DNA of 64,000 nucleotides from Thermoleophilaceae bacterium (GTDB lineage: Bacteria; Actinomycetota; Thermoleophilia; Solirubrobacterales; Thermoleophilaceae): assembly GCA_030446485.1 (NCBI GenBank), contig JAUJNF010000001.1, forward strand, positions 194,018-258,017, read 5' to 3'. This document shows, piece by piece, positions 22,245 to 34,264 of the stretch. How positions within the stretch are numbered: position 1 is the first letter of the stretch; each line of letters starts with the position of its first letter. Both the position numbers and the translations under genes were made by a program. The notes below the pieces were generated by a model that worked only from the letters and a program-made list of their open reading frames with translations, ran no database searches and was not told the origin of the DNA.

Positions 22245-25200
22245 TCAGGCAGCGAGCTCGTCGCCGCCGCTGCGACGGTGGAACTCCTCGCCGACGCCGG
22301 CGATGAGGTCGGCGCGGAAGGTTTCGTCGGAGAAAAACCGCTCGAAGAACGCCTTGTTCGTGTTATCGGTCTTGAGCATCTCCTCCTCGAACGCGCCGCC
22401 GAAGACGAGGAGGAAGTTGTCCTTCGAGTTCACCTTCGCCTCCTGGACCAGCTCCGGGTCTTCGGCCATCTCGCCGAGCACCTGTTCGAGGATGATGCGG
22501 TCGCCGCTGCCGAGTTCCGCGCCGAAGCGCGTGTTGAGGTCGGCGATGATGACCGCGAGCCGGTCCTTGGTCGGCTCGACCGGCGGCAGGACCTCGCCGC
22601 TCTCGGGGTCAGAGACAGTGCCGCCCTGGCCTGGAGAGACGTCCTGCTCAGCTAGGGCCTCGATGCGCAGGTGCGTGAGCACGATGTCGCCGCCGAGGTC
22701 GAGCGAGCCGCCCTCCTGGGTGGGCAGCGCGTTCTGCAAGTGCCGCCCGTAGAGGAATGTCGCTTCGAGCTTCGGGTCGTTGAACGCGACCGCCTGTGCA
22801 AGGAAGCCGTAGATGTCGAGGAACTTCGAGAGGGCAGCGCGGAAGCCCTTGCGCTCATCGTCGTCGGGAAGCTGGGCGAAGCGCTCGACCGCGCCTTGCA
22901 GGTGCCCGATCAGCTGCGCGTGCGCGGTGGGCTCCAAAGGGTCTGAGCCGAGGAACACGCCCGCGAACGCCTGCTCGTCGGCAACGTCAATCACCGGATA
23001 GGCCGTCAGCGCGCCGTGCGCGACGTACATCTCCGCCGGCGACGTCGCGGACGTCATCGTCGCCTCGTAAAAGTCCTCGAACGCGTCGCGGATGTCGGCC
23101 CCGGCGTTCACGAAGTCCAGGACGAATGTGTCGTCCTTCTCCGGGTGGATGCGATTCAGCCGCGAGAGCGTCTGCACTGCGCGGATGCCGCGGAGCTTCT
23201 TGTCCACGTACATCGTGTGCAGCAGCGGCTGGTCGAAGCCGGTCTGGTACTTCTCGGCGACGACGAGCAGGCGATGCAGCTCGTGGCCGGCGTCCTTCTC
23301 GGGGTCGCCGGTCGGCACCCACGCGAACTTGCCCGGCAGCTCCGCTTCCCCGAACCCGTTGAGCTCGGCCTCCGTGTAGGAGGTGCCGGAGACCGAGACG
23401 GCGTCGGAGAATGCGACCAGCGGCTTGAAGCTCTCGTGGCCTTGGGCCTTCGCCGCCTTCGTGAGCGCGAAGTAGGTCAGGACTGCCAGCTCGCGAGAGG
23501 CGCAGGCCACCATCGCCTTGGCGTGGCCGCCGACCTTTGGCGCGACCGCGTGGTGGAAGTGCTCGACAATGACCCGCGCCTTCTCATCCAGCGTCTCGGG
23601 ATGGCGGCTGACGCACTTGACGATGGCCTGCGTCGCCTTGCTATTCTCGACCTCTTGGTCGCCCCCGCTCTCCGAGGCGACCTGCCAAAGGACGCTGTAG
23701 GGCGTGTAGCGCCGGAGCACGTCGAGGATGAAGCCCTCCTCGATGGCCTGGCGCATCGAGTACAGGTGAAACGGCGCGCGCTGGTCACCGCCGACGGCGG
23801 AGCCGAACAGCTCCAGCGTCCGCCGCGTCGGCGTTGCCGTGAACGCGAAGTAGGAGAGGTTCGGCTGCTTGCCCCGGGCTTTCACCGAAGCGGCGATGAG
23901 GTCTTGGACCTCGGCTTCGGACGGCTCGTCTTCGTCCTCGCTCTTGTCCTCCTCGTCCACGGCCGCAGCGGCGCCGGCACCGAGGGCGGTCCGCAGCGCC
24001 TTCGCCGCCTCGCCGCCCTGTGACGAGTGCGCCTCGTCAATGATGATCGCGTAGTTGCGGTCAGGCAGCTCGCCGAGCTTCTCGATTACGAAGGGGAACT
24101 TCTGGAGCGTCGAGATGATGATGCGGCTGGTCGCTGAGGAGAGCGCCGCCGCCAGCTCCGAGCTGCCGCCCTTGGTCTTCTGCACGAGGCCCGTCTTGTG
24201 CTCGAACTGGTACACGGTGTCGCCGAGCTGCTGGTCGAGCACGAGCCGGTCGGTGACGATGATGACCTTGTCGAAGACCGGCTCGTCGTCGGCGTGCAAG
24301 ACAGCCAGACGATGCGCGAGCCAGGCGATGGTGTTGCTCTTGCCGGAGCCGGCGGAGTGCTCAATGAGGTAGTTGTGCCCGGCGCCGTTGGTGCGAGCGT
24401 GCGCGAGCAGTCGGAGGACGGCGTCCCACTGGTGGAAGCGCGGGAAGATGACCGAGCGTTCGCCGTCGTCGTTCTTGGAGACGTGAACGAAGCGGCGCAG
24501 GATGTCTAGCCAGTTGTCGCGCTGCCAGACCTCCTCCCAGAGGTACGAGGTCGCGTACTTGCCGCCGGTGCCCGGCGGGTTGCCTTTGCCGTTGTTGTGG
24601 CCACGGTTGAACGGCAGGAAGACGGTGTCCTGGCTGGCGAGCTTGGTCGCCAGATAAACCTCGTCGGTGTCCACCGCGAAGTGCGCGATGGCGCGGCGGG
24701 CGAAGATGGGTTCCGACGCCTCGCGGTCGGAGCGGTACTGCTTCATAGCGTGCTTGACCGTCTGTTTGGTCAGCTTGTTCTTCAGCTCAGCGGTCGCTAC
24801 CGGAAGACCGTTCACGAACAGCACTAGGTCGAGCTCGTTCGTGTTCTTCGTGGAGTAGATGAGCTGTCGTACGACCGTGACCCTGTTCGCCGCGTAGAGC
24901 TCGGTCAGCTCCTTGGTCAGCCCGTGCTCGGGACGGAAGTATGCGAGCTCGAAGTCCACGCCCATGACCGAGACGCCGACGCGCAGACAGCGCAAGACGC
25001 CCTGGCTGTCGAGCATCTTTGCGACCGTCTGGTGGAAGGTGGCACGCGCCTTGCCCTCGTCGCCGCCGAAGCGCGTGGTCACGAGCGTCTGCCACTGCTT
25101 GGCCTGAGTCGCGGCGATGAACGCGTCCAGCTTGACGGGATCGAGCGCGAGCTTGGCGTCGTAGTTTGCCGGGTGGCCAGAGAGCCAGCGGGCCTGGCCG

Positions 25201-25268
25201 CGAGCGGGGTCGGTCAGATACGCCTCGATGGCGCGCTCGAAGTCCCCCTCCTTGTACGGGCCCGTCAT
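22245..25268 (-). CDS. hsdR: type I restriction endonuclease subunit R
   Basis: 1007 aa. N-terminal nuclease region, helicase motifs HSAGSGKSNT and IIIDEAHSSQ, and the characteristic C-terminal domain. Its ATG overlaps the hsdS stop by 4 nt. Confidence 0.95.
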   Translation of the reverse strand: MTGPYKEGDFERAIEAYLTDPARGQARWLSGHPANYDAKLALDPVKLDAFIAATQAKQWQTLVTTRFGGDEGKARATFHQTVAKMLDSQGVLRCLRVGVSVMGVDFELAYFRPEHGLTKELTELYAANRVTVVRQLIYSTKNTNELDLVLFVNGLPVATAELKNKLTKQTVKHAMKQYRSDREASEPIFARRAIAHFAVDTDEVYLATKLASQDTVFLPFNRGHNNGKGNPPGTGGKYATSYLWEEVWQRDNWLDILRRFVHVSKNDDGERSVIFPRFHQWDAVLRLLAHARTNGAGHNYLIEHSAGSGKSNTIAWLAHRLAVLHADDEPVFDKVIIVTDRLVLDQQLGDTVYQFEHKTGLVQKTKGGSSELAAALSSATSRIIISTLQKFPFVIEKLGELPDRNYAIIIDEAHSSQGGEAAKALRTALGAGAAAAVDEEDKSEDEDEPSEAEVQDLIAASVKARGKQPNLSYFAFTATPTRRTLELFGSAVGGDQRAPFHLYSMRQAIEEGFILDVLRRYTPYSVLWQVASESGGDQEVENSKATQAIVKCVSRHPETLDEKARVIVEHFHHAVAPKVGGHAKAMVACASRELAVLTYFALTKAAKAQGHESFKPLVAFSDAVSVSGTSYTEAELNGFGEAELPGKFAWVPTGDPEKDAGHELHRLLVVAEKYQTGFDQPLLHTMYVDKKLRGIRAVQTLSRLNRIHPEKDDTFVLDFVNAGADIRDAFEDFYEATMTSATSPAEMYVAHGALTAYPVIDVADEQAFAGVFLGSDPLEPTAHAQLIGHLQGAVERFAQLPDDDERKGFRAALSKFLDIYGFLAQAVAFNDPKLEATFLYGRHLQNALPTQEGGSLDLGGDIVLTHLRIEALAEQDVSPGQGGTVSDPESGEVLPPVEPTKDRLAVIIADLNTRFGAELGSGDRIILEQVLGEMAEDPELVQEAKVNSKDNFLLVFGGAFEEEMLKTDNTNKAFFERFFSDETFRADLIAGVGEEFHRRSGGDELAA

Positions 25269-26494
25269 GCGGCAGACCTCTGCGCGACGTGCTTCGCACC
25301 GAGGACCGTTTGGTCAAGGACAAGGCGTCGGCGACGTTCGTGTAGGGACCGGAGCTGATGGTCGAGTTGAGTGGTCAGCGTGCGGGTCGTATCGAGTGCG
25401 TCGTCCAACCGCCGAGCGAGGTCGTCCTGCGCGTCGCCGACCGGGACAGGAACTTGTACGCGCTTCAGGTTGCGAATGTTGATGCCGCGAACGGCGCTTC
25501 CCATCGCGCCCTCGTTCAGCTGCGTGAACACGAACTGCGAACGCAACGCGTGGTAAAGCCATCGTGTGCTGACTCCGGTAGCCGGCGCGATGCGGGCAAC
25601 ATCACGAGACACGTTGGCCCCGGCCAGTGACGGCGGCACCTCGGCCACCGCGCCGAAGCTTCCTCGAATGGACATCACCAGGTCCGCTGCTTCCAGCCGT
25701 GCGCGCGCGTAGGGCTGCTCAACCTCAGGCGTCGTACGTCGAAGGTTGTCGGGGTGAAGGCGCTCTGCTTCGACGTCCCCGGCATCAATGACGGAGATGC
25801 CTTCTGAGACGGACGGCCCGGGCATAAGAATGCCGTACATCGGCGGACGAGCCGGGTCCACGAGGTACATGAGGGGCGTGCGCCGCCCCGTGTCCTCCGC
25901 CCCTACGATGAGCGCGTTGGTCAGCGCCTGGTGCCGCTCAGCGACGAGTTGGCGCTGTCGGCCTTTCAGCTCCGAGAGTGCGTCGAGATGCCGCGTCTCG
26001 ACGTCCAGCACCTTTGCGATGGCCCGCTGCGCCGCCGTCGGTGGAACCTCGACCCACGTCGCCAGAAACCGACGAAGGTCGAGGTTCGCCAGCGTCGTTT
26101 CGTTCGCGAACCGTCTGCCGTCACCTCGCGCCCAGAGCGCTTGAAGCAGGTACCAGGCAAAGCGTGAGTCCACGCCCTCACGCGAACGTAGCCGAACCAA
26201 GAAGTTTGAACTGATGGCGCGGGTTGCTCCCTCAAACAGTGCTGGGAATCCGACGTTGCCTGACTTTTCGAGCAAGATATCTCCACGTTCGAGTAGCCGC
26301 CCCCGCTGGGCCGAGGCGGGCACGGCACGCGTCGTGTCGAGGTCTTCGCGCACCATGAACTTCGCTCGGTCGAAGTCGGCTACTCGCGCGCACGCGACGT
26401 CATCGTCTCCGCCAGTCGGGTCCTCTCCCCAGAGGCCAGCGACCGGTGGTTCGAACAGGTACTTCAGGCGAACGCGGCGAGTCTGGGTGGTCAC
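25265..26494 (-). CDS. hsdS: type I restriction-modification specificity subunit
   Basis: 409 aa with two variable target-recognition regions separated by conserved helical spacers. It sits between hsdM and hsdR with 4-nt overlaps on both sides. Confidence 0.9.
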   Translation of the reverse strand: MTTQTRRVRLKYLFEPPVAGLWGEDPTGGDDDVACARVADFDRAKFMVREDLDTTRAVPASAQRGRLLERGDILLEKSGNVGFPALFEGATRAISSNFLVRLRSREGVDSRFAWYLLQALWARGDGRRFANETTLANLDLRRFLATWVEVPPTAAQRAIAKVLDVETRHLDALSELKGRQRQLVAERHQALTNALIVGAEDTGRRTPLMYLVDPARPPMYGILMPGPSVSEGISVIDAGDVEAERLHPDNLRRTTPEVEQPYARARLEAADLVMSIRGSFGAVAEVPPSLAGANVSRDVARIAPATGVSTRWLYHALRSQFVFTQLNEGAMGSAVRGINIRNLKRVQVPVPVGDAQDDLARRLDDALDTTRTLTTQLDHQLRSLHERRRRLVLDQTVLGAKHVAQRSAA

Positions 26495-28458
26495 GAGCTC
26501 TCGGCCACCCGTTCCAGGAGCCGCTGCACCTCGTGTTCGGTTTGCCGAAGGTCTTCGTCAATCTCGTCCAAAGGACGTAGGACCTCATCGCGATGAAACA
26601 CTCGCGTGAACGGAAGCTCGCATCCCTCGCGTCCTTGTGGCTCCGAGACCCACGCGTCGGGGGCGAACTGCAGAACTTCGCGTTCCATGTACTCCTCGAC
26701 GCTTTCACCGAGCGGGACTAGCTCGTACTCACGGAGGTCTGGGTCCGGTTCTATGTCGCCCTTCTTGTTGCGAACCTCCGGCGCAGCGGCATCGCGGGTA
26801 CTGAGCGCTGCCCACAACGCCTTCTTTGCGGGCGCGGCAAGCTTGCTCGGGATGACTTGCGCAAGCTTCTGTCCGGCCTCGACACGGGCTGTCGTGTTGA
26901 GACCATTCAATGCTCTCAGCCCTGCGGCGAGCTGGTCCTGGAGCTCCATGCCGAACTTCTGGAAGGCGGCAAGTGCTTGCAGCCGCTCGACGGCCTCCTC
27001 GCCAGCGCGGTAGCGCAATCGCAGGGGGCGCTCGACCGCGACCCGGCGGTAACCGAACTCGTGGTTCTCGAACACCTTGGAGCGCTCGTCCTCCGCGTCG
27101 AACCCTCGCCAGAGGCCGAGCACCTGCTCGATGTGGTCGAGCGAGAGACGGCGGCGCTTGTTGCCGAGGCTCTTGGGCATCTGCTCCCACAGCTCCCGTG
27201 CGTCAATCAGCTGAACCTTGCCCTTGCGGCGCGTCTCCTTGCGGTCGGTCAACACCCAGAGGTAGGTCGAGATGCCGGTGTTGTAGAAGAGCTGCTCAGG
27301 CAGCGCGACGATGGCCTCAAGCCAGTCGTTCTCCAATTGCAACAGCCAGCGCCGGATTTCGCTTTCTCCCGAGCCGGCATCACCCGAGAAGAGAGGTGAC
27401 GCGTTGAAGATGATGGCGATGCGGCTGCCGGCGTCCTGCTCCGGCGGCTTCATCTTCGCGAGCATGTTCTGAAGGAAGAGCAAAGCGCCGTCGCTTTTTC
27501 GCGGGGTCCCGGCACCGAACCGGCCGTCGTAGCCCTTCTGTTCGTGTTCGGCGATGACCGCATCGTGGTCGGCTGCCCAGTCCACGCCGAACGGCGGATT
27601 GGCGAGCATGAAGTCGAAGCGCTGGCCCTCAGCACCGTCCGCCGACAGCGTGCTGCCAGGAGCGATGCGACCGGGGTCCTGCCCCTTGACGAGCAGCTCG
27701 GCGCGGCAGATGGCCCAAGACTCCGGGTTGAGCTCCTGACCGAAAGAAACCAGTCGGGCCTTCGGGTTGCGGTCGCGGACCAACTCCTCGACTACAGAGA
27801 GCATCCCGCCGGTGCCGCATGCCGGGTCGTACACGGTGCGGACGATGCCCGGCGTCGTAAGCAGCTCCTCGTCACCGGCGAGGACCAGTTCGGCGCAGAG
27901 CCGGACGACCTCACGCGGCGTGAAGTGCTCGCCGGCCGTCTCATTCGAGACCTCCGAGAAGCGCCGAATCAGCTCCTCGAAGATATCGCCCATGACCTCG
28001 TTCGGGACGGTGTCCGGGTGGAGGTCGAGGTCGGGGTCGAGGAACTTGCCGAGCACCGAGTAGAGCCGGTCGGCCTTCTCCAAGCGCGTGATGGTCGCGT
28101 CGAACTCGAACGCCTCGAAGATTTCGCGCACGACTGGGTCGAAGCCGGCGAGGTACTCGCGCAGGTGCGTCGCCGCGTGGTCGGGGTCGGCCATGACCTT
28201 TGCGAGCGACAGCTTCGACGCGTTGTAGAAGCGCTGGTCCGCCGCGCGCTTGAGGATGGGGTCGAGGTTCAGCCCACGGCCCTCGTACTTCGCCGCCTCA
28301 GCGAGCACGTGCTCCTTGGTCGGCTCCAGCACCTGGTCGAGGCGACGCAGCAGCGTCAGCGGCAGGATGATGCTGCCGTATTCGTGCTGCTTGAATGCGC
28401 CGCGCAGTCGCTCGGCGATTGACCAAATGAAGTTGACGTGGCCGTTGGTGGAAGGCAT
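26491..28458 (-). CDS. hsdM: type I restriction-modification N6-adenine DNA methyltransferase subunit
   Basis: Inner ATG MPSTNGHVNFIWSIAERLRG (HsdM N-domain). DPACGTGGML (AdoMet site) and MLANPPFG (NPPF catalytic motif) are present. Confidence 0.95.
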   Translation of the reverse strand: MPSTNGHVNFIWSIAERLRGAFKQHEYGSIILPLTLLRRLDQVLEPTKEHVLAEAAKYEGRGLNLDPILKRAADQRFYNASKLSLAKVMADPDHAATHLREYLAGFDPVVREIFEAFEFDATITRLEKADRLYSVLGKFLDPDLDLHPDTVPNEVMGDIFEELIRRFSEVSNETAGEHFTPREVVRLCAELVLAGDEELLTTPGIVRTVYDPACGTGGMLSVVEELVRDRNPKARLVSFGQELNPESWAICRAELLVKGQDPGRIAPGSTLSADGAEGQRFDFMLANPPFGVDWAADHDAVIAEHEQKGYDGRFGAGTPRKSDGALLFLQNMLAKMKPPEQDAGSRIAIIFNASPLFSGDAGSGESEIRRWLLQLENDWLEAIVALPEQLFYNTGISTYLWVLTDRKETRRKGKVQLIDARELWEQMPKSLGNKRRRLSLDHIEQVLGLWRGFDAEDERSKVFENHEFGYRRVAVERPLRLRYRAGEEAVERLQALAAFQKFGMELQDQLAAGLRALNGLNTTARVEAGQKLAQVIPSKLAAPAKKALWAALSTRDAAAPEVRNKKGDIEPDPDLREYELVPLGESVEEYMEREVLQFAPDAWVSEPQGREGCELPFTRVFHRDEVLRPLDEIDEDLRQTEHEVQRLLERVAESS

Positions 28459-28952
28459 AGGACGGGCGGCATGGCCGCGACCTTGTACGCGGGTACGCGC
28501 CAGCACTCGTATTTCTAGCCGCTCGCAGCTAGTCGCGCGAGCCACTCGCTACAGGCCAGGGTCGTCTATCCGCTTCGCTCGCCGCTTGCGCTAGCGCGAC
28601 ACCGCATCCTGAGCGCCTGGCAGGCTGAGAACGCGCGTGACGAAGGCGCGCGCCTGCTCCGTCCAGCCCGGCGACTCGCGCCCGGCGCTCAACCGCAGGT
28701 TCAAGCGCCGGCCGCCTCTTCCTACGAGAGACTCACCGCTGCGTCCACGAAGTGGCCCTGGTTGCGCAGCTGGTCTTCGAGGCCCTCCATCGCTACGGGC
28801 TGCGGACTAGTTCTAGCCGCCCAACTCCGGCGCTGGCGGTCCCCGCAGACCAGCCCTTCCCGCGCCTCTATCCCGCGACCGGGGTGTCGCGGGGCGTCAA
28901 GACCGCCCTTCGTGATTCTCCCGAGGCGACGACCGACCCCCTCCGCAGTCGG

Positions 28953-31385
28953 CTATTGCTCGATTAGGGCTTGAAGATCGTCGCTGCTCAGTTCGCGAGC
29001 CGGGTTGACCTGGCCGTTCACGACCGCGCCCTCGGCTTGCAGCATCTCCACCGGATCACGCGTGTCTTCGGGATCGGTCCACCTGAAGTTCGGGGCGACG
29101 GTCCCGTTGCTCTTGAGGAGGCGGTGAGCGTTCGTGCACTGCCGGCAGGTGGTCACGTGCGCGCCGAGCGGCTGAGCGGCCGTCCCCACCGCGTCCGCCA
29201 GACTGCCATAGGTGGTCCAATGACCCACAGGCAAGGCCGCAAGGATTGTGTGGAGGGCTGACCAATCGAAGCTTGGCGCCATTTTCGCAGGGTCCTCGCC
29301 GGTGTATATGGCTCGGACGTCGAGAAGCCTGCGGCCATCAGGCAGGCTCCAGAACCGCCAGCCGTTGGTGACCGAACCCCCCTTGACGTATCGGCCGGCG
29401 CCCGACGGCGAATCGAAGGTCTTCCCGTCGATGTCAAGGAGCCCGTCAGACCGCACGAGCGCGCTACGAGTCTCCCACGCGCCGGCGCGAGGGGTCAACA
29501 CCGTCCCGGGGGGAAGAAGCCTCGCATCGACGAGGTGTTTGACCTGGATCCAACCCGCTGACTTCTCGTGCGGGTCGACGACGATGCCTTCGTGGCCATT
29601 CGGTACCGGCCACTTCTCCAGGAGCACGTCAATCAGGGCTTCGGTCCGCGCGTCGATACCGGCCTCATCCCAGGTCCCGTCGAGCGTCGACAGAAGTCGG
29701 CTGTTGAGAAGCAGCGTGTCGTGAGCTTGCAGTGCCGTGCGCTTCGATTCCCACGGACCGTTAGAGACCTTGGAGTTCAGCGATGCGGTGAGCAGGGTCA
29801 GGTTTCCAAACCTATGGACGTGCTCGGCTCGGAGCTCCTCGGCGACTGGGTCGCTGACGGGCCAATGATCCGGCCATTTCTGGGGAAGAATGTGCTCGAT
29901 CGGGTATCCACGACGTGGAACCTGCGGCTGATTCGTCGAACGTCGATATTCGTCCTCGATTGCCTCGAAGAGCATCCGTAGACGAGACTTTTTGAAACGG
30001 CGGAAGACCTGCTCAGTGCGAAGCGCTCCCCGAATCTCATCGTCCCCAGGCCAGTACGTACTGGTCACGTTGAGCCGTGACAGGTATCCCTCGATACTCT
30101 CAGCCAGGCCAGCCGGCGGGGTGGGTTCATGCGCGCGGATGATGTCCGCGACGATGCGTCCCATGTCCGCGACAGCCAGGCGCAGGATCTGTCGTCGGAC
30201 CAGCCAGCTCTCGACTGCGGACGTGACGCGGTCGATTACGTCGGCCGGCACGTCGCGGCCGGGCTCGTGCAACCAGATCAGCAACGGCTTCAGCAGCTCG
30301 GTGCCCGACGCCTTCATCCGGTAGACGGCAAGCTCAACCCGGGTGAGCTGTCGGTCGCCCTCGTCCGCCACCGTCGTCCAACGCTCGTATGTCTCCGCCT
30401 GCTTCCGAATCACCGAAAGCAGATCCGCGACCTTCGTTCCTGTCTCGAGCTCGATCTGTTCGACGTACTGCTTGAAGCGCGTGAACGTGGCGCGGAGGCT
30501 GACTTCCTCGCCAAGACGCGTCATCAACCATTGGTTGAAAAAGAGCGAGCTTCGCGGCATGGCGTAGCGACCGACGCTGACCTCCTTCTCCCAGAACTCG
30601 GTCTCAAAGGGCCAATCGTCGAGATGGGCACGCGTGTCCGCCCCCTCGGCGGCCAAGCGCTGGAAAACGAAGTTCCTGATGAGGTCCGCCGCGGTGAGAG
30701 GTGTCCCTCTCGCGTTCAGCGTCTCGAAGATCTCCTGCGAGTTCTCGTTGATCGTTAGGTTGATGGCGACCAGCTGCAATCCGCGGGTCAGTACCCCCGT
30801 AAGCGCCTGCGCACGCTCCGCGACTCCGTCGGCCGCCGGATCCAACCACTCCGTTACGACTTCGGTGAAGTACTCGTGCGCGCGAACCACTCGACCTCCC
30901 GAGTGAAGGAGGGTCTCATGGGCGATGGGAGCCTCGGCGTCCATCACCTCGTCAAAGGCGTGCCGGTCCCGATTGCTATGGCGGAGCTTGAGTCGTGTCT
31001 CAGCGCCCGGGACGTAGATGTTCTCGTTGTGGGTGAGGCGATCGAGTTGTCCCGCAAGTGCGTCTTGACTGATCGTCTCAAGTGCCGCAGCAGCTGCATC
31101 CATGAGCAGCTGAAGTGTGGTCAGCCGCTGCTGCCCGTCGATGATGCTGCTCGCTTGGAGGCCGCCGAGTATCGGCTCCTGCGCTTGTACGACGATCGCG
31201 CCGAGGAAGTGCTTGGCTTCGGCAGCCGGTTGCGCGATCCGGATAGCCGCCAGGCGTCGGACGTCCTGCCAGAGCGGCGCCCACTGTTCCTCCTTTTCCC
31301 AAACATACGGGCGCTGGAACGGGGGCACCACGAGGTGCTGCGGCTGCATGAAGACGTCCTGCGGAGTCCGGACGTGCGTTTCCAT
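28953..31385 (-). CDS. GmrSD-family (DUF262 + DUF1524) type IV restriction-like enzyme with C-terminal RAMA and alkyltransferase-like (MGMT DNA-binding) domains
   Basis: VVPPFQRPYVWEKEEQW and IIDGQQRLTT (DUF262). YPIEHILPQKW...HRFGNLTLLTASLNSKVSN (DUF1524 His-Me finger). LLPPGTVL...DGKTFDSPSGAGRYVKGGSVTNGWRFW (RAMA-like, about 29304-29549). GHWTTYGSLADAVGTAAQPLGAHV...NAHRLL (ATL-like without Cys, about 29061-29273). Confidence 0.85.
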   Translation of the reverse strand: METHVRTPQDVFMQPQHLVVPPFQRPYVWEKEEQWAPLWQDVRRLAAIRIAQPAAEAKHFLGAIVVQAQEPILGGLQASSIIDGQQRLTTLQLLMDAAAAALETISQDALAGQLDRLTHNENIYVPGAETRLKLRHSNRDRHAFDEVMDAEAPIAHETLLHSGGRVVRAHEYFTEVVTEWLDPAADGVAERAQALTGVLTRGLQLVAINLTINENSQEIFETLNARGTPLTAADLIRNFVFQRLAAEGADTRAHLDDWPFETEFWEKEVSVGRYAMPRSSLFFNQWLMTRLGEEVSLRATFTRFKQYVEQIELETGTKVADLLSVIRKQAETYERWTTVADEGDRQLTRVELAVYRMKASGTELLKPLLIWLHEPGRDVPADVIDRVTSAVESWLVRRQILRLAVADMGRIVADIIRAHEPTPPAGLAESIEGYLSRLNVTSTYWPGDDEIRGALRTEQVFRRFKKSRLRMLFEAIEDEYRRSTNQPQVPRRGYPIEHILPQKWPDHWPVSDPVAEELRAEHVHRFGNLTLLTASLNSKVSNGPWESKRTALQAHDTLLLNSRLLSTLDGTWDEAGIDARTEALIDVLLEKWPVPNGHEGIVVDPHEKSAGWIQVKHLVDARLLPPGTVLTPRAGAWETRSALVRSDGLLDIDGKTFDSPSGAGRYVKGGSVTNGWRFWSLPDGRRLLDVRAIYTGEDPAKMAPSFDWSALHTILAALPVGHWTTYGSLADAVGTAAQPLGAHVTTCRQCTNAHRLLKSNGTVAPNFRWTDPEDTRDPVEMLQAEGAVVNGQVNPARELSSDDLQALIEQ

Positions 31386-31790
31386 CAGGCGGTCCTCTGT
31401 GTCGTGATTCTCACACTCGGCTGGGCAGTTAGGCCAAGCACGTCCGCGAGCCTAGATCACGGCCGGGAGACGACGTTCCGACCCCTTCATTCCGTCTACC
31501 TCGGTCCAGACTGAGGGCTATTCCTCCGTGTTCGGCGAGTCCCAAGGGACGAATGTGCTGCCTCATGACGACGGCGGGCACAGGTCTTGCGACCCCCGCA
31601 TTCAACCGCTCGGCCGCCCGTCCGGGCTTTTGCCAGAGGGCAGTCCGGACAGCAGCGGTACCCCGACTAGCGTCTATTCGGGGTCGTTCCGCGTCGGCCA
31701 GGGAGGTCCTGAGCTGTACGAGGCAGGCTGGGATAATCCGGGCCCTGCCGGAGGTGACATGCTCCACTCGATGGGGAGAAAGGACGGACG

Positions 31791-33431
31791 GTGACGCCGA
31801 CTGAGCTAGCGCGAATCCATGCTGAGTTGGAAGGAATAGGGCATGTCCTGCGGGACCGGCGGCTCGCGGTCCCTTCGTATCAGCGCGCCTACTCCTGGCG
31901 GGAACCGCAGGTCGCTGACTTCTGGTGGGACCTACGCGCGGCGTTTGGATCTAAAGCGTCGCAGTACTTCCTTGGATCGATCGTCATCACTGAGGACACG
32001 GAGAGTGGCGGCAGCACCGTCATCGACGGCCAGCAGCGCCTCGCAACCACGGTGATGCTGCTCGCGGCATTCCGCAATCAGTTCGTGACGCGCGGAGATT
32101 CCGACAGGGCCCAGGTGCTCGAGCGCGACTACATCGCGTCAAGGACCTTAAGGACAACGGATCTCGAACCGCGCCTTACGCTGAACGTCACAGATCGAAC
32201 ACAGTTTCGAGAGCTCGTGATCGCACCGCCCGACGCTACTTCGAGCGGTCAAGACGGCGAGCGGAACGCTCTAATGGATCAGGCGTTTGGCTTCCTCGCT
32301 GCGCGTGTCGATGAGGAAGCCCACGCCGCCGGGCGACATTGGGCCGAGCGGCTCGTCGAGTGGGTCGACTTCCTCGAAGAGCGCGCCAGGGTGATCACGG
32401 TAGATGTGTCGTCGGAAGCGGACGCATTCCTCATTTTCGAGACTCTCAACGCTCGGGGCCGAGAGCTTACGGTCGCCGATGTGCTTAAGAACTACCTGTT
32501 CGGACTCGCGCGGGACGAGCTTGAGGCGGTACAGGAGCACTGGCTGTCGGCAATCAGGGCCCTGGAAACCACGGCCGACGAGGAAATTTTCACCACATTC
32601 GTTCGGCACCATTGGAGCTCCTCCAGGGGCGCGACTCGCGAGCGAGAGCTCTATGCGCGCATGAAGTCTGGCCTGACGACTTCTTCCGCTGCCTTGACGT
32701 TCGCCGACGACCTAGACGCTGCCGCCCCTTCCTATGCGGCGTTGCTTAGCTCGGATCACGAGCATTGGACGGCTTCTCCGGAATTGCAGCCGGCCGCGCA
32801 GACACTTCTGCGCTTCGGCCTTGAGCAGAACCGACCGTTGCTCCTCGCGGCAATGCGGCGGTTCGAGTCAGCCGAATTCGCGCAGCTCCTGCGTGCCGTC
32901 ATCTCGTGGTCGGTACGGGGCCTCATCGTGGGCGGTATCGGTGGAGGCAGTACGGAGCGTGCCTATGCCGACGCGGCGGTCCTTGTTAGCGAGCGGACGA
33001 TCTCCACGACGAAAGATGTCTTCGTCGAGCTCGCGTCAGTTATCCCCACAGACGAGTCGTTCATACAGGCGTTCGCACAGCGGCGCGTCAACCGGACCAG
33101 GCTGGCCAAGTACTACCTCATCGCTCTAGCGCAATCCGAGGATGGAAATGCGAGCCCTCTCTTTGTGTCGGACGAGATCGATCAGGACTATCGGCTTGAA
33201 GCGGTGATCCCCCGCAATCCGAACCCTGAGGAGTGGCAAGGATTTCCTGCCGATGAGCTGCGCCAATGGGCTCTGCGCCTCGGGAACCAGTACGTGAGCG
33301 ATTCGCAGGGAGCACGCGCGCCCGTCGGCGATGACCTCGCCTCTCCGGACGTATTCGGACCGGACGACATCGTAGATCGTCAGCGACGCATGGCCGAGCA
33401 AGCGGTGGCGATATGGCCACGACCCTTCTGA
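31791..33431 (+). CDS. DUF262 protein with degenerate DUF1524-like C-terminus
   Basis: GTG start with AAGGA 6 nt upstream. VPSYQRAYSW and IDGQQRLATT are present. The C-terminal YRLEAVIPRNP...LRLGNQYVSDSQ occupies the place of IEHILPQ...GNLTLL...N. Confidence 0.8.
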   Translation: MTPTELARIHAELEGIGHVLRDRRLAVPSYQRAYSWREPQVADFWWDLRAAFGSKASQYFLGSIVITEDTESGGSTVIDGQQRLATTVMLLAAFRNQFVTRGDSDRAQVLERDYIASRTLRTTDLEPRLTLNVTDRTQFRELVIAPPDATSSGQDGERNALMDQAFGFLAARVDEEAHAAGRHWAERLVEWVDFLEERARVITVDVSSEADAFLIFETLNARGRELTVADVLKNYLFGLARDELEAVQEHWLSAIRALETTADEEIFTTFVRHHWSSSRGATRERELYARMKSGLTTSSAALTFADDLDAAAPSYAALLSSDHEHWTASPELQPAAQTLLRFGLEQNRPLLLAAMRRFESAEFAQLLRAVISWSVRGLIVGGIGGGSTERAYADAAVLVSERTISTTKDVFVELASVIPTDESFIQAFAQRRVNRTRLAKYYLIALAQSEDGNASPLFVSDEIDQDYRLEAVIPRNPNPEEWQGFPADELRQWALRLGNQYVSDSQGARAPVGDDLASPDVFGPDDIVDRQRRMAEQAVAIWPRPF

Positions 33432-33454: not shown

Positions 33455-34264
33455 ATGCCGGGGCTTCTGACTGCCGAACCCCTTGAGCGTGTGTACTTGG
33501 CTTGGCGCAGGACGGTGCTCACTGACCCAGAAATGCGAGCGATCGACCAGGCGAGCATGCGACAGCTCGCAAACGCCCTCAATGAAGCGCTGACGGGCGA
33601 CGCGCAGGAGGCGCTCGAAGAAGCGTGCGAGCTCCTAGCCGCCCAAGAGCTCAATCCAACGACCTCAATACGAGTAGTCACGACGCTGGTCGAGACGTTT
33701 GTCGATGAGATCGGGGCCCGATCGGGAGCGGAGATCCGAAGCCTCGTCGCGACGCTGGGCCAGGCCTGCGCATCGCTCTCGACCGGCTTGGTTACCCGCG
33801 CCGGAGCTGGCGCTAAGCGCGATCACATGACCGCGCTCCCTAACCGTCAGGCCTTTGACGAGGCCCTTGCGGCAGGCACTCGAGCCGCGCTCGACCAAGA
33901 GAACTCGCTCGTTCTGGCTCATTTCGACCTCGACAACTTCAAGCAGATCAACGACACGGAGGGGCATCCGGCAGGGGACGACATCCTCCGCGGGTTCGCG
34001 GCCGCCCTGAGGGACGAGTTGCCGGAGGACGCGACTGCATACCGGACGGGGGGCGACGAGTTTTGCGCTCTGTTTCCGGACAACGTGAGCGGCTCCGCAC
34101 AAGAGCTTGTCGGCGCGCTGCGGGATCGCGGCGTGGCCGAATTCAGCTGCGGGATCGCCCGAATCTCGCCAGATGTCGCTACACCGGAAGAGCTGTATCA
34201 AGCCGCCGACCAAGAGCTCTACCGGAACAAGGAAGCGCGAAAGTCGCAGCCGGACGCCTCGTAG
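33455..34264 (+). CDS. GGDEF-domain diguanylate cyclase-like protein with unassigned ~110-aa N-terminal domain
   Basis: TALPNRQAF, FDLDNFKQINDTEGHPAGD and YRTGGDEFCALF motifs. It starts 24 bp after the DUF262 gene and has its own GAGG. Confidence 0.85.
   Translation: MPGLLTAEPLERVYLAWRRTVLTDPEMRAIDQASMRQLANALNEALTGDAQEALEEACELLAAQELNPTTSIRVVTTLVETFVDEIGARSGAEIRSLVATLGQACASLSTGLVTRAGAGAKRDHMTALPNRQAFDEALAAGTRAALDQENSLVLAHFDLDNFKQINDTEGHPAGDDILRGFAAALRDELPEDATAYRTGGDEFCALFPDNVSGSAQELVGALRDRGVAEFSCGIARISPDVATPEELYQAADQELYRNKEARKSQPDAS

What the first reader, a model, noticed from the sequence alone, without database searches (positions are those of the whole stretch)
28953..31385. GmrSD-type enzyme fused to RAMA and a Cys-less alkyltransferase-like domain
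Seen: an 810-aa protein with a DUF262 N-domain, an intact DUF1524 His-Me finger and a 210-aa C-terminal extension. The first part of the extension (about 29304-29549) reads LLPPGTVLTPRAGAWETRSALVRSDGLLDIDGKTFDSPSGAGRYVKGGSVTNGWRFWSLPDGRRLLDVRAIY. That matches the RAMA (restriction-enzyme/adenine-methylase-associated) pattern ending in NGW.FW. The second part (about 29061-29273), GHWTTYGSLADAVGTAAQPLGAHV...NAHRLLKSNG, looks like the MGMT/ATL DNA-binding domain with the PCHR Cys replaced (NAHR). Established: GmrSD enzymes cut modified DNA. RAMA has been proposed as a modified-base sensor. ATL proteins bind and flip alkylated guanines without repairing them. Inference: two additional modified-base readers fused to a type IV nuclease suggest an unusual or broadened target specificity.
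Basis: partly seen in the sequence, partly recalled or inferred. Interest (0 to 1): 0.6.

Follow-up and report, generated by a model that had tools for sequence, protein, structure and literature searches.

The report
GmrSD restriction nuclease with RAMA–ATL tail
This gene encodes a phage-defence nuclease of the known GmrSD family that carries two extra DNA-binding domains, one of them a dead copy of a DNA-repair domain; the domain combination is real and conserved, was already listed in a 2015 survey, and has never been tested at the bench.

Summary
Window 28953-31385 (minus strand) is an intact 810-aa ORF.

- **Domains:** Pfam finds GmrSD_N (DUF262), GmrSD_C (DUF1524) and RAMA, all above the curated cut-offs.
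- **Last domain:** it scores just under the PF01035 (MGMT DNA-binding) cut-off on this sequence. Homology is nonetheless secure. All 36 relatives tested hit PF01035. A tail profile finds only MGMT/OGT/Atl1 chains in the PDB. An AlphaFold model (pLDDT 92) matches only those folds.
- **Not unusual:** more than 100 90%-identity clusters share the ~809-aa layout. Machnicka et al. 2015 listed DUF4357 (overlaps RAMA) and PF01035 as extra GmrSD domains. Iyer et al. 2016 listed RAMA-nuclease fusions. This scan also noted a GmrSD-ATL fusion on another genome (e1-2487620).
- **What I add:** the ATL-like domain keeps the flipping tyrosine and the HR of PCHR. It never has the acceptor Cys. It has Gln in place of the arginine finger, Cys in place of the Asn hinge, and an invariant His-His-Cys-Cys signature. 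The same RAMA+ATL tandem is fused to a NucS-like nuclease family. That is the usual pattern of a sensor module.

Verdict: a new member of a known but biochemically untested kind. That the tail reads modified bases is plausible but unproven.

The parts
28953..31385 (-). Whole gene: 810-aa GmrSD-RAMA-ATL-like protein (P0001), stop codon included
   Evidence: ORF list and translation. Homologues of ~809 aa share the full length.
30663..31343 (-). DUF262 / GmrSD_N ParB-like NTPase domain (residues 15-241), with DGQQR at 83-87 (31125-31139)
   Evidence: PF03235, 116 bits. DGQQR located. The equivalent Q/R residues are needed for defence in HEC-06 (bioRxiv 10.1101/2024.01.29.577857).
29628..30053 (-). 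DUF1524 / GmrSD_C His-Me-finger nuclease domain (residues 445-586), with IEHILPQ at 496-502 (29880-29900)
   Evidence: PF07510, 90 bits, 1-137 of 138 positions. H498 and Q502 are invariant in 97 relatives. E/H mutants abolish HEC-06 defence.
29304..29561 (-). RAMA domain (residues 609-694) ending in TNGWRFW
   Evidence: PF18755, 51.5-54.3 bits against a cut-off of 35.2. Weak matches to the CcrM C-terminal region. Conserved PSGA...NGW.FW.
28956..29267 (-). Cys-less MGMT-C / alkyltransferase-like winged-helix domain plus terminal helix (residues 707-810)
   Evidence: PF01035 at 21-26 bits on this sequence, and 36 of 36 relatives hit it. Profile against PDB. AF2 pLDDT 91.9. Foldseek top 41 hits are all MGMT/OGT/ATL.
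29121..29252 (-). Signature stretch, residues 712-755: H712, Y726, Q738 (arginine-finger position), H743, C747 (Asn-hinge position), C750, N752-A753-H754-R755 (PCHR position)
   Evidence: Column counts over 97 relatives: H712, H743, C747, C750 and R755 are 97/97, Y726 is 93/97, and Q738 is 88/97. A753 is Ala 80, Pro 9, Thr 4 of 97; the printed tally covers 96 of 97 and none is Cys. Correspondence with SsOGT and Atl1 residues comes from the HMM alignments.
22245..28545 (-). Context, not part of the protein: type I R-M hsdM (26491-28545), hsdS (25265-26494), hsdR (22245-25268), same strand, immediately downstream
   Evidence: PADLOC MTase_I 837 bits, Specificity_I and REase_I. ORFs.

Best explanation
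P0001 is a single-polypeptide GmrSD-family defence nuclease, that is, a type IV, modification-dependent restriction enzyme. The N-terminal DUF262 ParB-like NTPase (DGQQR) and the DUF1524 His-Me-finger nuclease (EH...N) form the NTP-controlled cutting engine, as in Eco94GmrSD, BrxU, SspE and HEC-06. The C-terminal 215 residues are a two-domain DNA-targeting module made of a RAMA domain and a catalytically dead MGMT-C/alkyltransferase-like winged helix. I infer that this module docks the enzyme on foreign DNA and most likely contributes to recognising a non-canonical base. On this reading the ATL-like domain probes bases from the minor groove using the retained tyrosine and a remodelled pocket that has no acceptor Cys, Gln instead of the Arg finger, and a probable structural metal site (His-His-Cys-Cys). 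Shown here: the domain identities, intact catalytic motifs, conservation of the tail at the same level as the core, single-gene status, frequent defence or R-M neighbourhood, and reuse of the same tandem on another nuclease. Inferred: modification dependence, which base is read, base flipping and metal binding.
For: The domains are above Pfam cut-offs for the core and RAMA. PADLOC matches GmrSD-like defence models (Orf5 2.5e-77, HEC-06 1e-54, mREase_IV 7e-50). ATL-like homology holds at family level and at fold level. The tail is conserved as strongly as the catalytic core, with mean pairwise identity 0.64-0.66 against 0.64-0.72 in 94 relatives, so it is under selection. There is no conserved partner gene in 8 contexts. 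Four lie beside adenine-methylase R-M systems, two beside Abi_alpha/TraG or HepT-MNT, and two among housekeeping genes. This fits the report that GmrSD-like genes often sit in or next to type I R-M. The tail is modular. The same ATL-like clade follows GmrSD without RAMA (L006, L008, L010, L012). A sister clade has an ArsR/MarR-like winged helix in its place. A ~450-aa family joins a NucS-like PD-(D/E)xK nuclease to a RAMA-like domain and the same ATL-like domain. Sensor domains of type IV enzymes show this pattern of reuse on different nucleases (PMC12191111). END nucleases set a precedent for an inactivated repair domain (EndoIII) serving as the hypermodified-base sensor of a defence nuclease.
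Against: There is no biochemical datum for any member of this family. The role of RAMA as a 6mA reader is unconfirmed, and in CcrM the homologous domain is described as non-specific. The ATL-like domain lacks the Arg finger and the Asn hinge, so base flipping may be lost. An adenine-methylating type I system sits next door, so generic m6A cannot be the target without self-restriction. BrxU shows broad substrate range without any extra reader domain, so GmrSD cores may not need one.
Confidence: 0.7

Rival explanations
1. The RAMA and ATL-like domains are plain, modification-blind DNA-binding anchors. They raise DNA affinity or help dimer or cluster formation on DNA, and any modification sensing resides in the GmrSD core.
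For: The CcrM C-terminal (RAMA-type) domain is described as a non-specific DNA-binding domain (PMC6787082). The AGT HTH binds the minor groove without sequence specificity, and AGT/ATL form cooperative clusters on DNA (PMC10779285). The Arg finger is absent. The sister clade has a generic ArsR/MarR-like winged helix at the same position. BrxU is promiscuous without reader domains.
Against: The retained Tyr, His-Arg and Glu of the MGMT pocket and the invariant HHCC signature point to a specific, constrained site rather than a generic binder. The tandem recurs on unrelated nucleases, as known sensor modules do.
Confidence: 0.25
2. The protein is a DNA-repair enzyme. The ATL-like domain finds alkylated guanine and the fused nuclease nicks next to it, as in the known AGT-endonuclease V fusions.
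For: ATLs bind O6-alkylguanine and hand it to repair, and fusions of the AGT C-domain to an endonuclease exist (PMC10779285).
Against: The gene sits in a low-GC defence island beside type I R-M. Its distribution is patchy: this ATL-like clade is fused to GmrSD in 5 of 401 sampled genomes. It matches PADLOC defence models. The Arg finger used for lesion flipping is lost. GmrSD relatives are defence nucleases.
Confidence: 0.04
3. The ATL-like resemblance is a chance sub-threshold hit and the last 100 residues are an unrelated helical tail.
For: This sequence scores 21-26 bits against the PF01035 cut-off of 27. Single-sequence phmmer against the PDB found nothing. Foldseek E-values are only about 5e-3 and TM-scores 0.5-0.6.
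Against: All 36 relatives hit PF01035, best E 9e-10. The profile's top 11 PDB hits and the Foldseek top 41 hits are exclusively MGMT/OGT/ATL. The Y, HR and EG motifs align in register.
Confidence: 0.01

Closest known systems
GmrSD-family type IV restriction enzymes (Eco94GmrSD, BrxU, SspE, HEC-06)
   Same: DUF262 with DGQQR, a helical linker and the DUF1524 His-Me finger in one chain. It is a single-gene system, often next to R-M or BREX. It matches the PADLOC models Orf5, HEC-06 and mREase_IV.
   Different: It carries a 215-residue RAMA + ATL-like tail that the characterised members lack. Sequence similarity to solved members is low (best PDB E 4.5e-8, local only). The substrate is unknown.
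GmrSD homologues with DUF4357 and DNA_binding_1 domains (Machnicka et al. 2015, PMC4619093)
   Same: The same extra domains are named as additions to GmrSD, mainly in Streptomyces. DUF4357 overlaps the RAMA hit here.
   Different: That survey only lists the domains. It does not analyse the ATL-like residues, the NucS-type relatives or the function.
Alkyltransferase-like proteins (S. pombe Atl1, E. coli eATL/YbaZ, Vibrio vpAtl)
   Same: MGMT C-domain fold without the N-domain. No acceptor cysteine. The flipping tyrosine, the HR of PCHR and the Glu of ..EG are retained.
   Different: It is a fused domain, not a stand-alone ~110-aa protein. The Arg finger is Gln, the Asn hinge is Cys, and the Cys position is Ala rather than Trp. 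It has an extra invariant His-His-Cys-Cys signature. The context is defence, not repair.
END nucleases (inactivated EndoIII domain fused to a PLD nuclease; PMC12191111)
   Same: The same logic applies: a catalytically dead DNA-repair domain is fused to a defence nuclease, and there it is shown to set which hypermodified phages are hit.
   Different: The repair fold (HhH glycosylase) and the nuclease are different. END is experimentally characterised and this family is not.
RAMA-nuclease fusions (Iyer, Zhang & Aravind 2016, PMC4738411)
   Same: RAMA was defined by its fusion to REase, HNH, URI and ParB-type nucleases and to N6A methylases of R-M systems. Here it follows a ParB-like/HNH GmrSD core beside a type I R-M.
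   Different: The ATL-like partner domain is not mentioned in the passages I read.

Membership tests
GmrSD (type IV restriction, DUF262+DUF1524) | N-terminal DUF262/ParB-like domain with the DGQQR NTP-binding motif | tested here: met
   PF03235, 116 bits. DGQQR at 83-87.
GmrSD (type IV restriction, DUF262+DUF1524) | C-terminal DUF1524 His-Me/HNH nuclease with the EH motif and downstream Asn residues | tested here: met
   PF07510, 90 bits over 1-137 of 138 positions. IEHILPQ...GNLTLL...LNSKVSN is present, and H498 is invariant in 97 relatives.
GmrSD (type IV restriction, DUF262+DUF1524) | NTP-stimulated cleavage of modified but not unmodified DNA | not testable with these tools
   Needs enzyme assays. 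No family member has been characterised (literature searches).
RAMA domain (PF18755) | Profile match above the curated threshold, with the C-terminal NGW.FW motif | tested here: met
   51.5-54.3 bits against 35.2. NGW.FW is conserved in the family.
RAMA domain (PF18755) | Association with adenine-methylase R-M systems | tested here: met
   Four of 8 contexts lie beside type I or type III-like N6A-MTase systems. The association is not obligatory.
Alkyltransferase-like (ATL) proteins | MGMT C-terminal domain fold (HTH, wing, active-site loop) without the AGT N-domain | tested here: met
   AF2 pLDDT 91.9. Foldseek top 41 hits are all MGMT/OGT/ATL, with Atl1 3gva at TM 0.59/0.60. Profile against PDB.
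Alkyltransferase-like (ATL) proteins | Acceptor cysteine of PCHR replaced | tested here: met
   NAHR in this protein. The printed tally covers 96 of 97 close relatives and 146 of 150 wider representatives, and none is Cys. It is Ala here, whereas most ATLs have Trp.
Alkyltransferase-like (ATL) proteins | Arginine finger (hAGT R128 / Atl1 R39) in the recognition helix | tested here: not met
   The aligned position is Gln738. It is Gln in 88 of 97 relatives and Arg in none of the 96 tallied. Only 18 of 150 wider representatives have Arg.
Alkyltransferase-like (ATL) proteins | Flipping tyrosine (hAGT Y114) | tested here: met
   Y726. Tyr in 93 of 97 and in 141 of 150.
Alkyltransferase-like (ATL) proteins | Asparagine hinge (hAGT N137) | tested here: not met
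   The aligned position is Cys747, invariant in 97 of 97. The feature is listed as conserved in PMC10779285.
Alkyltransferase-like (ATL) proteins | Pfam PF01035 gathering threshold | tested here: inconclusive
   This sequence scores 21.2-25.9 bits against 27. Some relatives pass, for example at 30-41 bits.
Alkyltransferase-like (ATL) proteins | Binds O6-alkylguanine and channels it to excision repair | not testable with these tools
   Needs binding assays. The defence context argues against a repair role.
Active O6-alkylguanine-DNA alkyltransferase (MGMT/Ogt/Ada) | Nucleophilic Cys in (I/V)PCHR(V/I) | tested here: not met
   The motif is TNAHRLL.

The most novel reading that the evidence does not exclude
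The Arg-finger-less, His-His-Cys-Cys-bearing ATL-like clade is a dedicated reader of modified purines, for example 7-deazaguanine derivatives or other guanine adducts in actinophage DNA. It has been recruited, usually together with RAMA, by at least two nuclease families: GmrSD and NucS-like PD-(D/E)xK. These would then be the first GmrSD-type restriction enzymes whose specificity is set by a dead alkyltransferase domain and directed at purine rather than cytosine modifications.
Probability: 0.15. Interest if true: 0.7.

Novelty: new member of a known kind. Interest (0 to 1): 0.35.

Why it matters
How GmrSD enzymes choose their substrates is still poorly understood. This family offers separable candidate sensor domains that could be deleted, swapped or mutated. 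If the dead alkyltransferase domain sets specificity, it would be a second case, after the END nucleases, of defence systems reusing an inactivated DNA-repair domain to detect phage DNA modifications. It could also provide a binding reagent for modified purines. If the tail is only a DNA anchor, the gene is an ordinary GmrSD variant.

Tried and rejected
- Single-sequence phmmer of the tail against the PDB gave only noise (utrophin, head-closure protein; CcrM at E 0.39). A family profile was needed.
- NCBIfam gave only weak CcrM (19 bits) and ogt (14 bits) hits.
- The promoter and terminator scan of 28300-31900 found nothing above shuffled expectation. Co-transcription with hsdM therefore stays open.
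- Pfam did not identify the ~170-aa domain that follows the ATL-like domain in L008, L010, P0201 and P0220. At E <= 0.01 it is not DUF4268.
- A literature search for ATL/MGMT domains in phage-defence nucleases returned nothing relevant. PMC12704722 on ParB-fold fusions does not mention GmrSD, RAMA or MGMT.
- I could not test whether H712, H743, C747 and C750 cluster in space, because the structure tool returns no coordinates. The metal site rests on co-conservation only.
- A fixed partner gene was considered and rejected. The 8 contexts share no conserved neighbour.
- My first ORF picker chose wrong-strand frames at several high-GC loci. I redid this with HMMs on six-frame segments.
Full report
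**Observation.** The window carries an uninterrupted 810-codon ORF on the minus strand at 28953-31385. Pfam assigns four domains:

| Domain | Residues | Score (bits) | Cut-off (bits) |
|---|---|---|---|
| GmrSD_N / DUF262 | 15-241 | 116 | 33 |
| GmrSD_C / DUF1524 | 445-586 | 90 | 23 |
| RAMA | 609-694 | 51.5 | 35.2 |
| DNA_binding_1 (PF01035, MGMT C-domain) | 713-786 | 21-26 | 27 |

The PF01035 match is just below its cut-off but spans positions 8-80 of the 81-position profile. The DUF4357 model overlaps the RAMA hit. The catalytic signatures are intact. DGQQR lies at 83-87. IEHILPQ...GNLTLL...LNSKVSN lies at 496-543, with H498 invariant in 97 relatives. PADLOC places the protein among GmrSD-like defence models: Orf5 at 2.5e-77, HEC-06 at 1e-54 and mREase_IV at 7e-50.

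**Is the last domain really MGMT/ATL-like?**
- On its own the sequence is sub-threshold, and single-sequence phmmer against the PDB finds nothing.
- I collected relatives and built a tail-only alignment, A1, of 36 sequences covering residues 700-810.
- All 36 tails hit PF01035, best E 9e-10, and nothing else recurs.
- The A1 profile searched against all PDB sequences returns MGMT/OGT/Ada/Atl1 chains as its top 11 hits, at E 0.005-0.12.
- An AlphaFold2 model of the domain is confident, with mean pLDDT 91.9 and pTM 0.83.
- The Foldseek top 41 PDB matches are all alkyltransferases or ATLs, at probability 0.8-1.0 and TM about 0.5-0.6. The best mutual TM, 0.59/0.60, is to S. pombe Atl1 (3gva). Unrelated winged helices follow only at E above 2.
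- JGI's pipeline already names many relatives 'alkylated DNA nucleotide flippase Atl1'.

I treat homology to the MGMT-C/ATL superfamily as established.

**How the domain differs from canonical ATLs.** The review PMC10779285 lists the conserved elements as the HTH, the arginine finger (R128), the tyrosine (Y114), the asparagine hinge and PCHR. It states that ATLs keep the arginine finger and the tyrosine. Correspondences below come from the HMM alignments to SsOGT and Atl1. Counts come from column tallies over 97 close relatives, which printed the six commonest residues per position.

| Canonical feature | Here | Count in 97 relatives |
|---|---|---|
| Flipping tyrosine (Y114) | Y726, kept | 93/97 |
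| His-Arg of PCHR | H754 and R755, kept | 90/97 and 97/97 |
| Glu of the EG motif | E785, kept | 94/97 |
| Acceptor Cys of PCHR | A753 | Ala 80, Pro 9, Thr 4; no Cys among the 96 tallied |
| Arginine finger (R128) | Q738 | Gln 88/97; no Arg among the 96 tallied |
| Asn hinge (N137) | C747 | 97/97 |

Four residues, H712, H743, C747 and C750, are invariant. In the 150 best 50%-identity representatives of this domain, His-His-Cys-Cys occurs in 84, plus 6 that are N-terminally truncated. The two cysteines are present or absent together, with CC in 91 and only 3 with a single Cys. In the divergent GmrSD-ATL proteins L010 and L012 all four residues are replaced. This co-conservation suggests a structural metal site. 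I could not measure distances in the model, so that is an inference. The domain is therefore 'ATL-like', meaning Cys-less and lacking the N-domain, but it fails two defining ATL features.

**How common is the architecture?**
- The word-indexed search with the tail returned 135 proteins. More than 100 90%-identity clusters have the same ~809-aa four-domain layout.
- They come from soil metagenomes and from named Actinomycetota (Leifsonia, Aeromicrobium, Actinopolymorpha, Solirubrobacter).
- The tail is as conserved as the catalytic core. Mean pairwise identity is 0.66 for RAMA and 0.64 for ATL, against 0.64-0.72 for the core regions, in 94 full-length relatives.
- In an even sample of 401 genomes of the phylum, 35 had a match to the tail profile at E <= 1e-5. 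Most of these are weak hits in short ORFs and are probably ordinary Ogt/ATL genes.
- GmrSD carrying this ATL-like domain was seen in G000 and in four other genomes (L006, L008, L010, L012). All four lack RAMA, and two carry a further unassigned C-terminal domain.
- The exhaustive profile search of 1.84 billion representatives found 751 hits at E <= 1e-3, 346 at E <= 1e-10 and 42 at E <= 1e-30.

**Modularity.** I classified the 150 best representatives with HMMs built from my own alignments. The results were:
- GmrSD+RAMA+ATL: 4.
- GmrSD+ATL: 14 complete, plus 13 with DUF1524+ATL only (lengths 198-481 aa; probably fragments).
- NucS-like+RAMA+ATL: 25, plus 5 without a detected RAMA.
- RAMA+ATL only: 26.
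- ATL only: 60, many of them short.

The ~450-aa family has an N-terminal PD-(D/E)xK domain whose best PDB hits are NucS (2vld, E 1.4e-3) and EndoMS (5gke, E 3.2e-3). Ten of 18 members hit PF01939 NucS_C, best E 4e-5. Its middle region aligns to the GmrSD-family RAMA region at hhalign probability 92% and E 6.5e-7. Its C-terminus is the same HHCC ATL-like domain.

One representative, P0195, combines the ATL-like domain with a weak HNH_2 match of 16 bits against a cut-off of 21. This is suggestive only. A sister clade of GmrSD-RAMA proteins (P0109-P0120; Citricoccus, Nocardioides) has a different C-terminal domain instead of ATL. Its model, at pLDDT 83, matches ArsR/MarR-type winged helices. So RAMA+ATL behaves as a portable unit that different nucleases have acquired, and the last position can be filled by another winged helix.

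**Genomic context.**
- In the window the gene lies in a lower-GC stretch, about 0.63-0.66 against about 0.70-0.74 in the flanks.
- It is upstream of, and co-oriented with, a complete type I R-M: hsdM 26491-28545, hsdS 25265-26494 and hsdR 22245-25268.
- It is divergent from a DUF262-only protein plus a GGDEF gene, which earlier findings of this scan have treated.
- No promoter-like or terminator-like signal stands out.
- Seven relatives were inspected. Two lie beside type I R-M. One lies beside an SNF2/DUF4391/N6_N4_Mtase/ResIII-RE_endonuc cluster. One lies beside Abi_alpha and a TraG-like gene. One lies near a HepT-MNT pair. Two lie among housekeeping genes.
- No neighbour is conserved, so this is a single-gene system.
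- This matches Payne et al., who report that GmrSD-like genes are often embedded in Hma and type I R-M loci. They also show that HEC-06 defence needs the DUF262 Q/R and the DUF1524 E/H residues.

**Mechanism.**
- *Established for relatives:* the DUF262 NTPase and the DUF1524 nuclease act together as a modification-dependent endonuclease (PMC4437046 abstract; BrxU; HEC-06).
- *Shown here:* both motifs are intact, and the tail is a selected, portable pair of nucleic-acid-binding domains.
- *Inferred:* the tail targets the nuclease to foreign DNA and probably contributes base discrimination.

In favour of discrimination:
- Type IV enzymes are typically a sensor plus a nuclease, and sensors are shared among nuclease folds (PMC12191111).
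- END nucleases show that a dead repair domain (EndoIII) can set the modified-phage spectrum.
- RAMA was defined by exactly such fusions (PMC4738411).

Against discrimination:
- The 6mA preference of RAMA was not confirmed experimentally (PMC11037411).
- The RAMA-type domain of CcrM is called non-specific (PMC6787082).
- The ATL-like domain has lost the arginine finger.
- An adjacent m6A-writing type I system argues that generic m6A is not the target.
- From my own knowledge rather than a tool result, M.HhaI uses a glutamine to fill the gap left by a flipped base. A Gln at the finger position therefore does not by itself exclude flipping.

**Comparison with what is known, and novelty.** Machnicka et al. 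2015 already reported DUF4357 and DNA_binding_1 (PF01035) as additional domains of GmrSD homologues, 'mainly from various Streptomyces species'. Iyer et al. 2016 listed RAMA fusions to ParB, HNH and REase nucleases. Another window of this scan produced the same kind of finding, e1-2487620, a GmrSD plus Cys-free ATL. The gene is thus a new member of a computationally known but experimentally untested family.

Three points appear to be additional. The first is the residue-level divergence from ATLs: no Arg finger, no Asn hinge and an HHCC signature. The second is the NucS-type family sharing the RAMA-ATL tandem. The third is the winged-helix replacement in the sister clade. I found no paper describing these, but the searchable library is incomplete.

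**Verdict.** Interest is moderate at 0.35. The gene is a good experimental handle on GmrSD targeting and on the reuse of dead repair domains in defence. Neither the architecture nor the idea is new.

Noticed in passing
Proteins P0127, P0139, P0144, P0153 and others (alignment A3), from the representative library, not the window: A ~450-aa family joins a NucS/EndoMS-like PD-(D/E)xK nuclease domain, a RAMA-like middle domain and the same HHCC ATL-like C-terminal domain. It is probably a second type of defence nuclease using the same tail.
   Followed up: partly
Window 29121-29252 (residues 712-755): H712, H743, C747 and C750 are invariant in 97 relatives and are kept or lost together across 150 wider representatives. 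This suggests a structural metal site that canonical MGMT C-domains and ATLs do not have.
   Followed up: partly
Proteins P0109-P0120 (Citricoccus, Nocardioides and metagenomes): A sister clade of GmrSD-RAMA proteins (~820 aa) has an ArsR/MarR-like winged-helix domain in place of the ATL-like domain.
   Followed up: yes
L008 (G024), L010 (G350), P0201, P0220: These GmrSD + ATL-like proteins lack RAMA and carry a further ~170-aa C-terminal domain that Pfam does not recognise at E <= 0.01.
   Followed up: partly
P0195 (477 aa, representative library): An ATL-like domain at residues 130-235 is followed by a C-terminal region with a weak HNH_2 match (16 bits, cut-off 21). This may be a third nuclease partner.
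   Followed up: no
L004 6855-7883 and L018 7296-7958: An EcsC-family gene (PF12787) lies between a type I R-M and the GmrSD-RAMA-ATL gene in two relatives (Aeromicrobium sp. Leaf245 and a metagenome contig), on the opposite strand to the GmrSD gene in L004 and on the same strand in L018. No EcsC gene was seen at that position in the window.
   Followed up: no
Window 31791-33431 (+) and 33455-34264 (+): The divergent neighbour is a DUF262 protein with no GmrSD_C Pfam hit. It matches PADLOC HEC-06/Orf5 over about 500 residues and is followed by a GGDEF gene. Finding e1-3864785 already covers it.
   Followed up: no
Window 28546-28952: A 407-bp gap separates the GmrSD stop from the hsdM start on the same strand, with no terminator-like site on the minus strand. 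Co-transcription with the type I R-M is possible but untested.
   Followed up: partly
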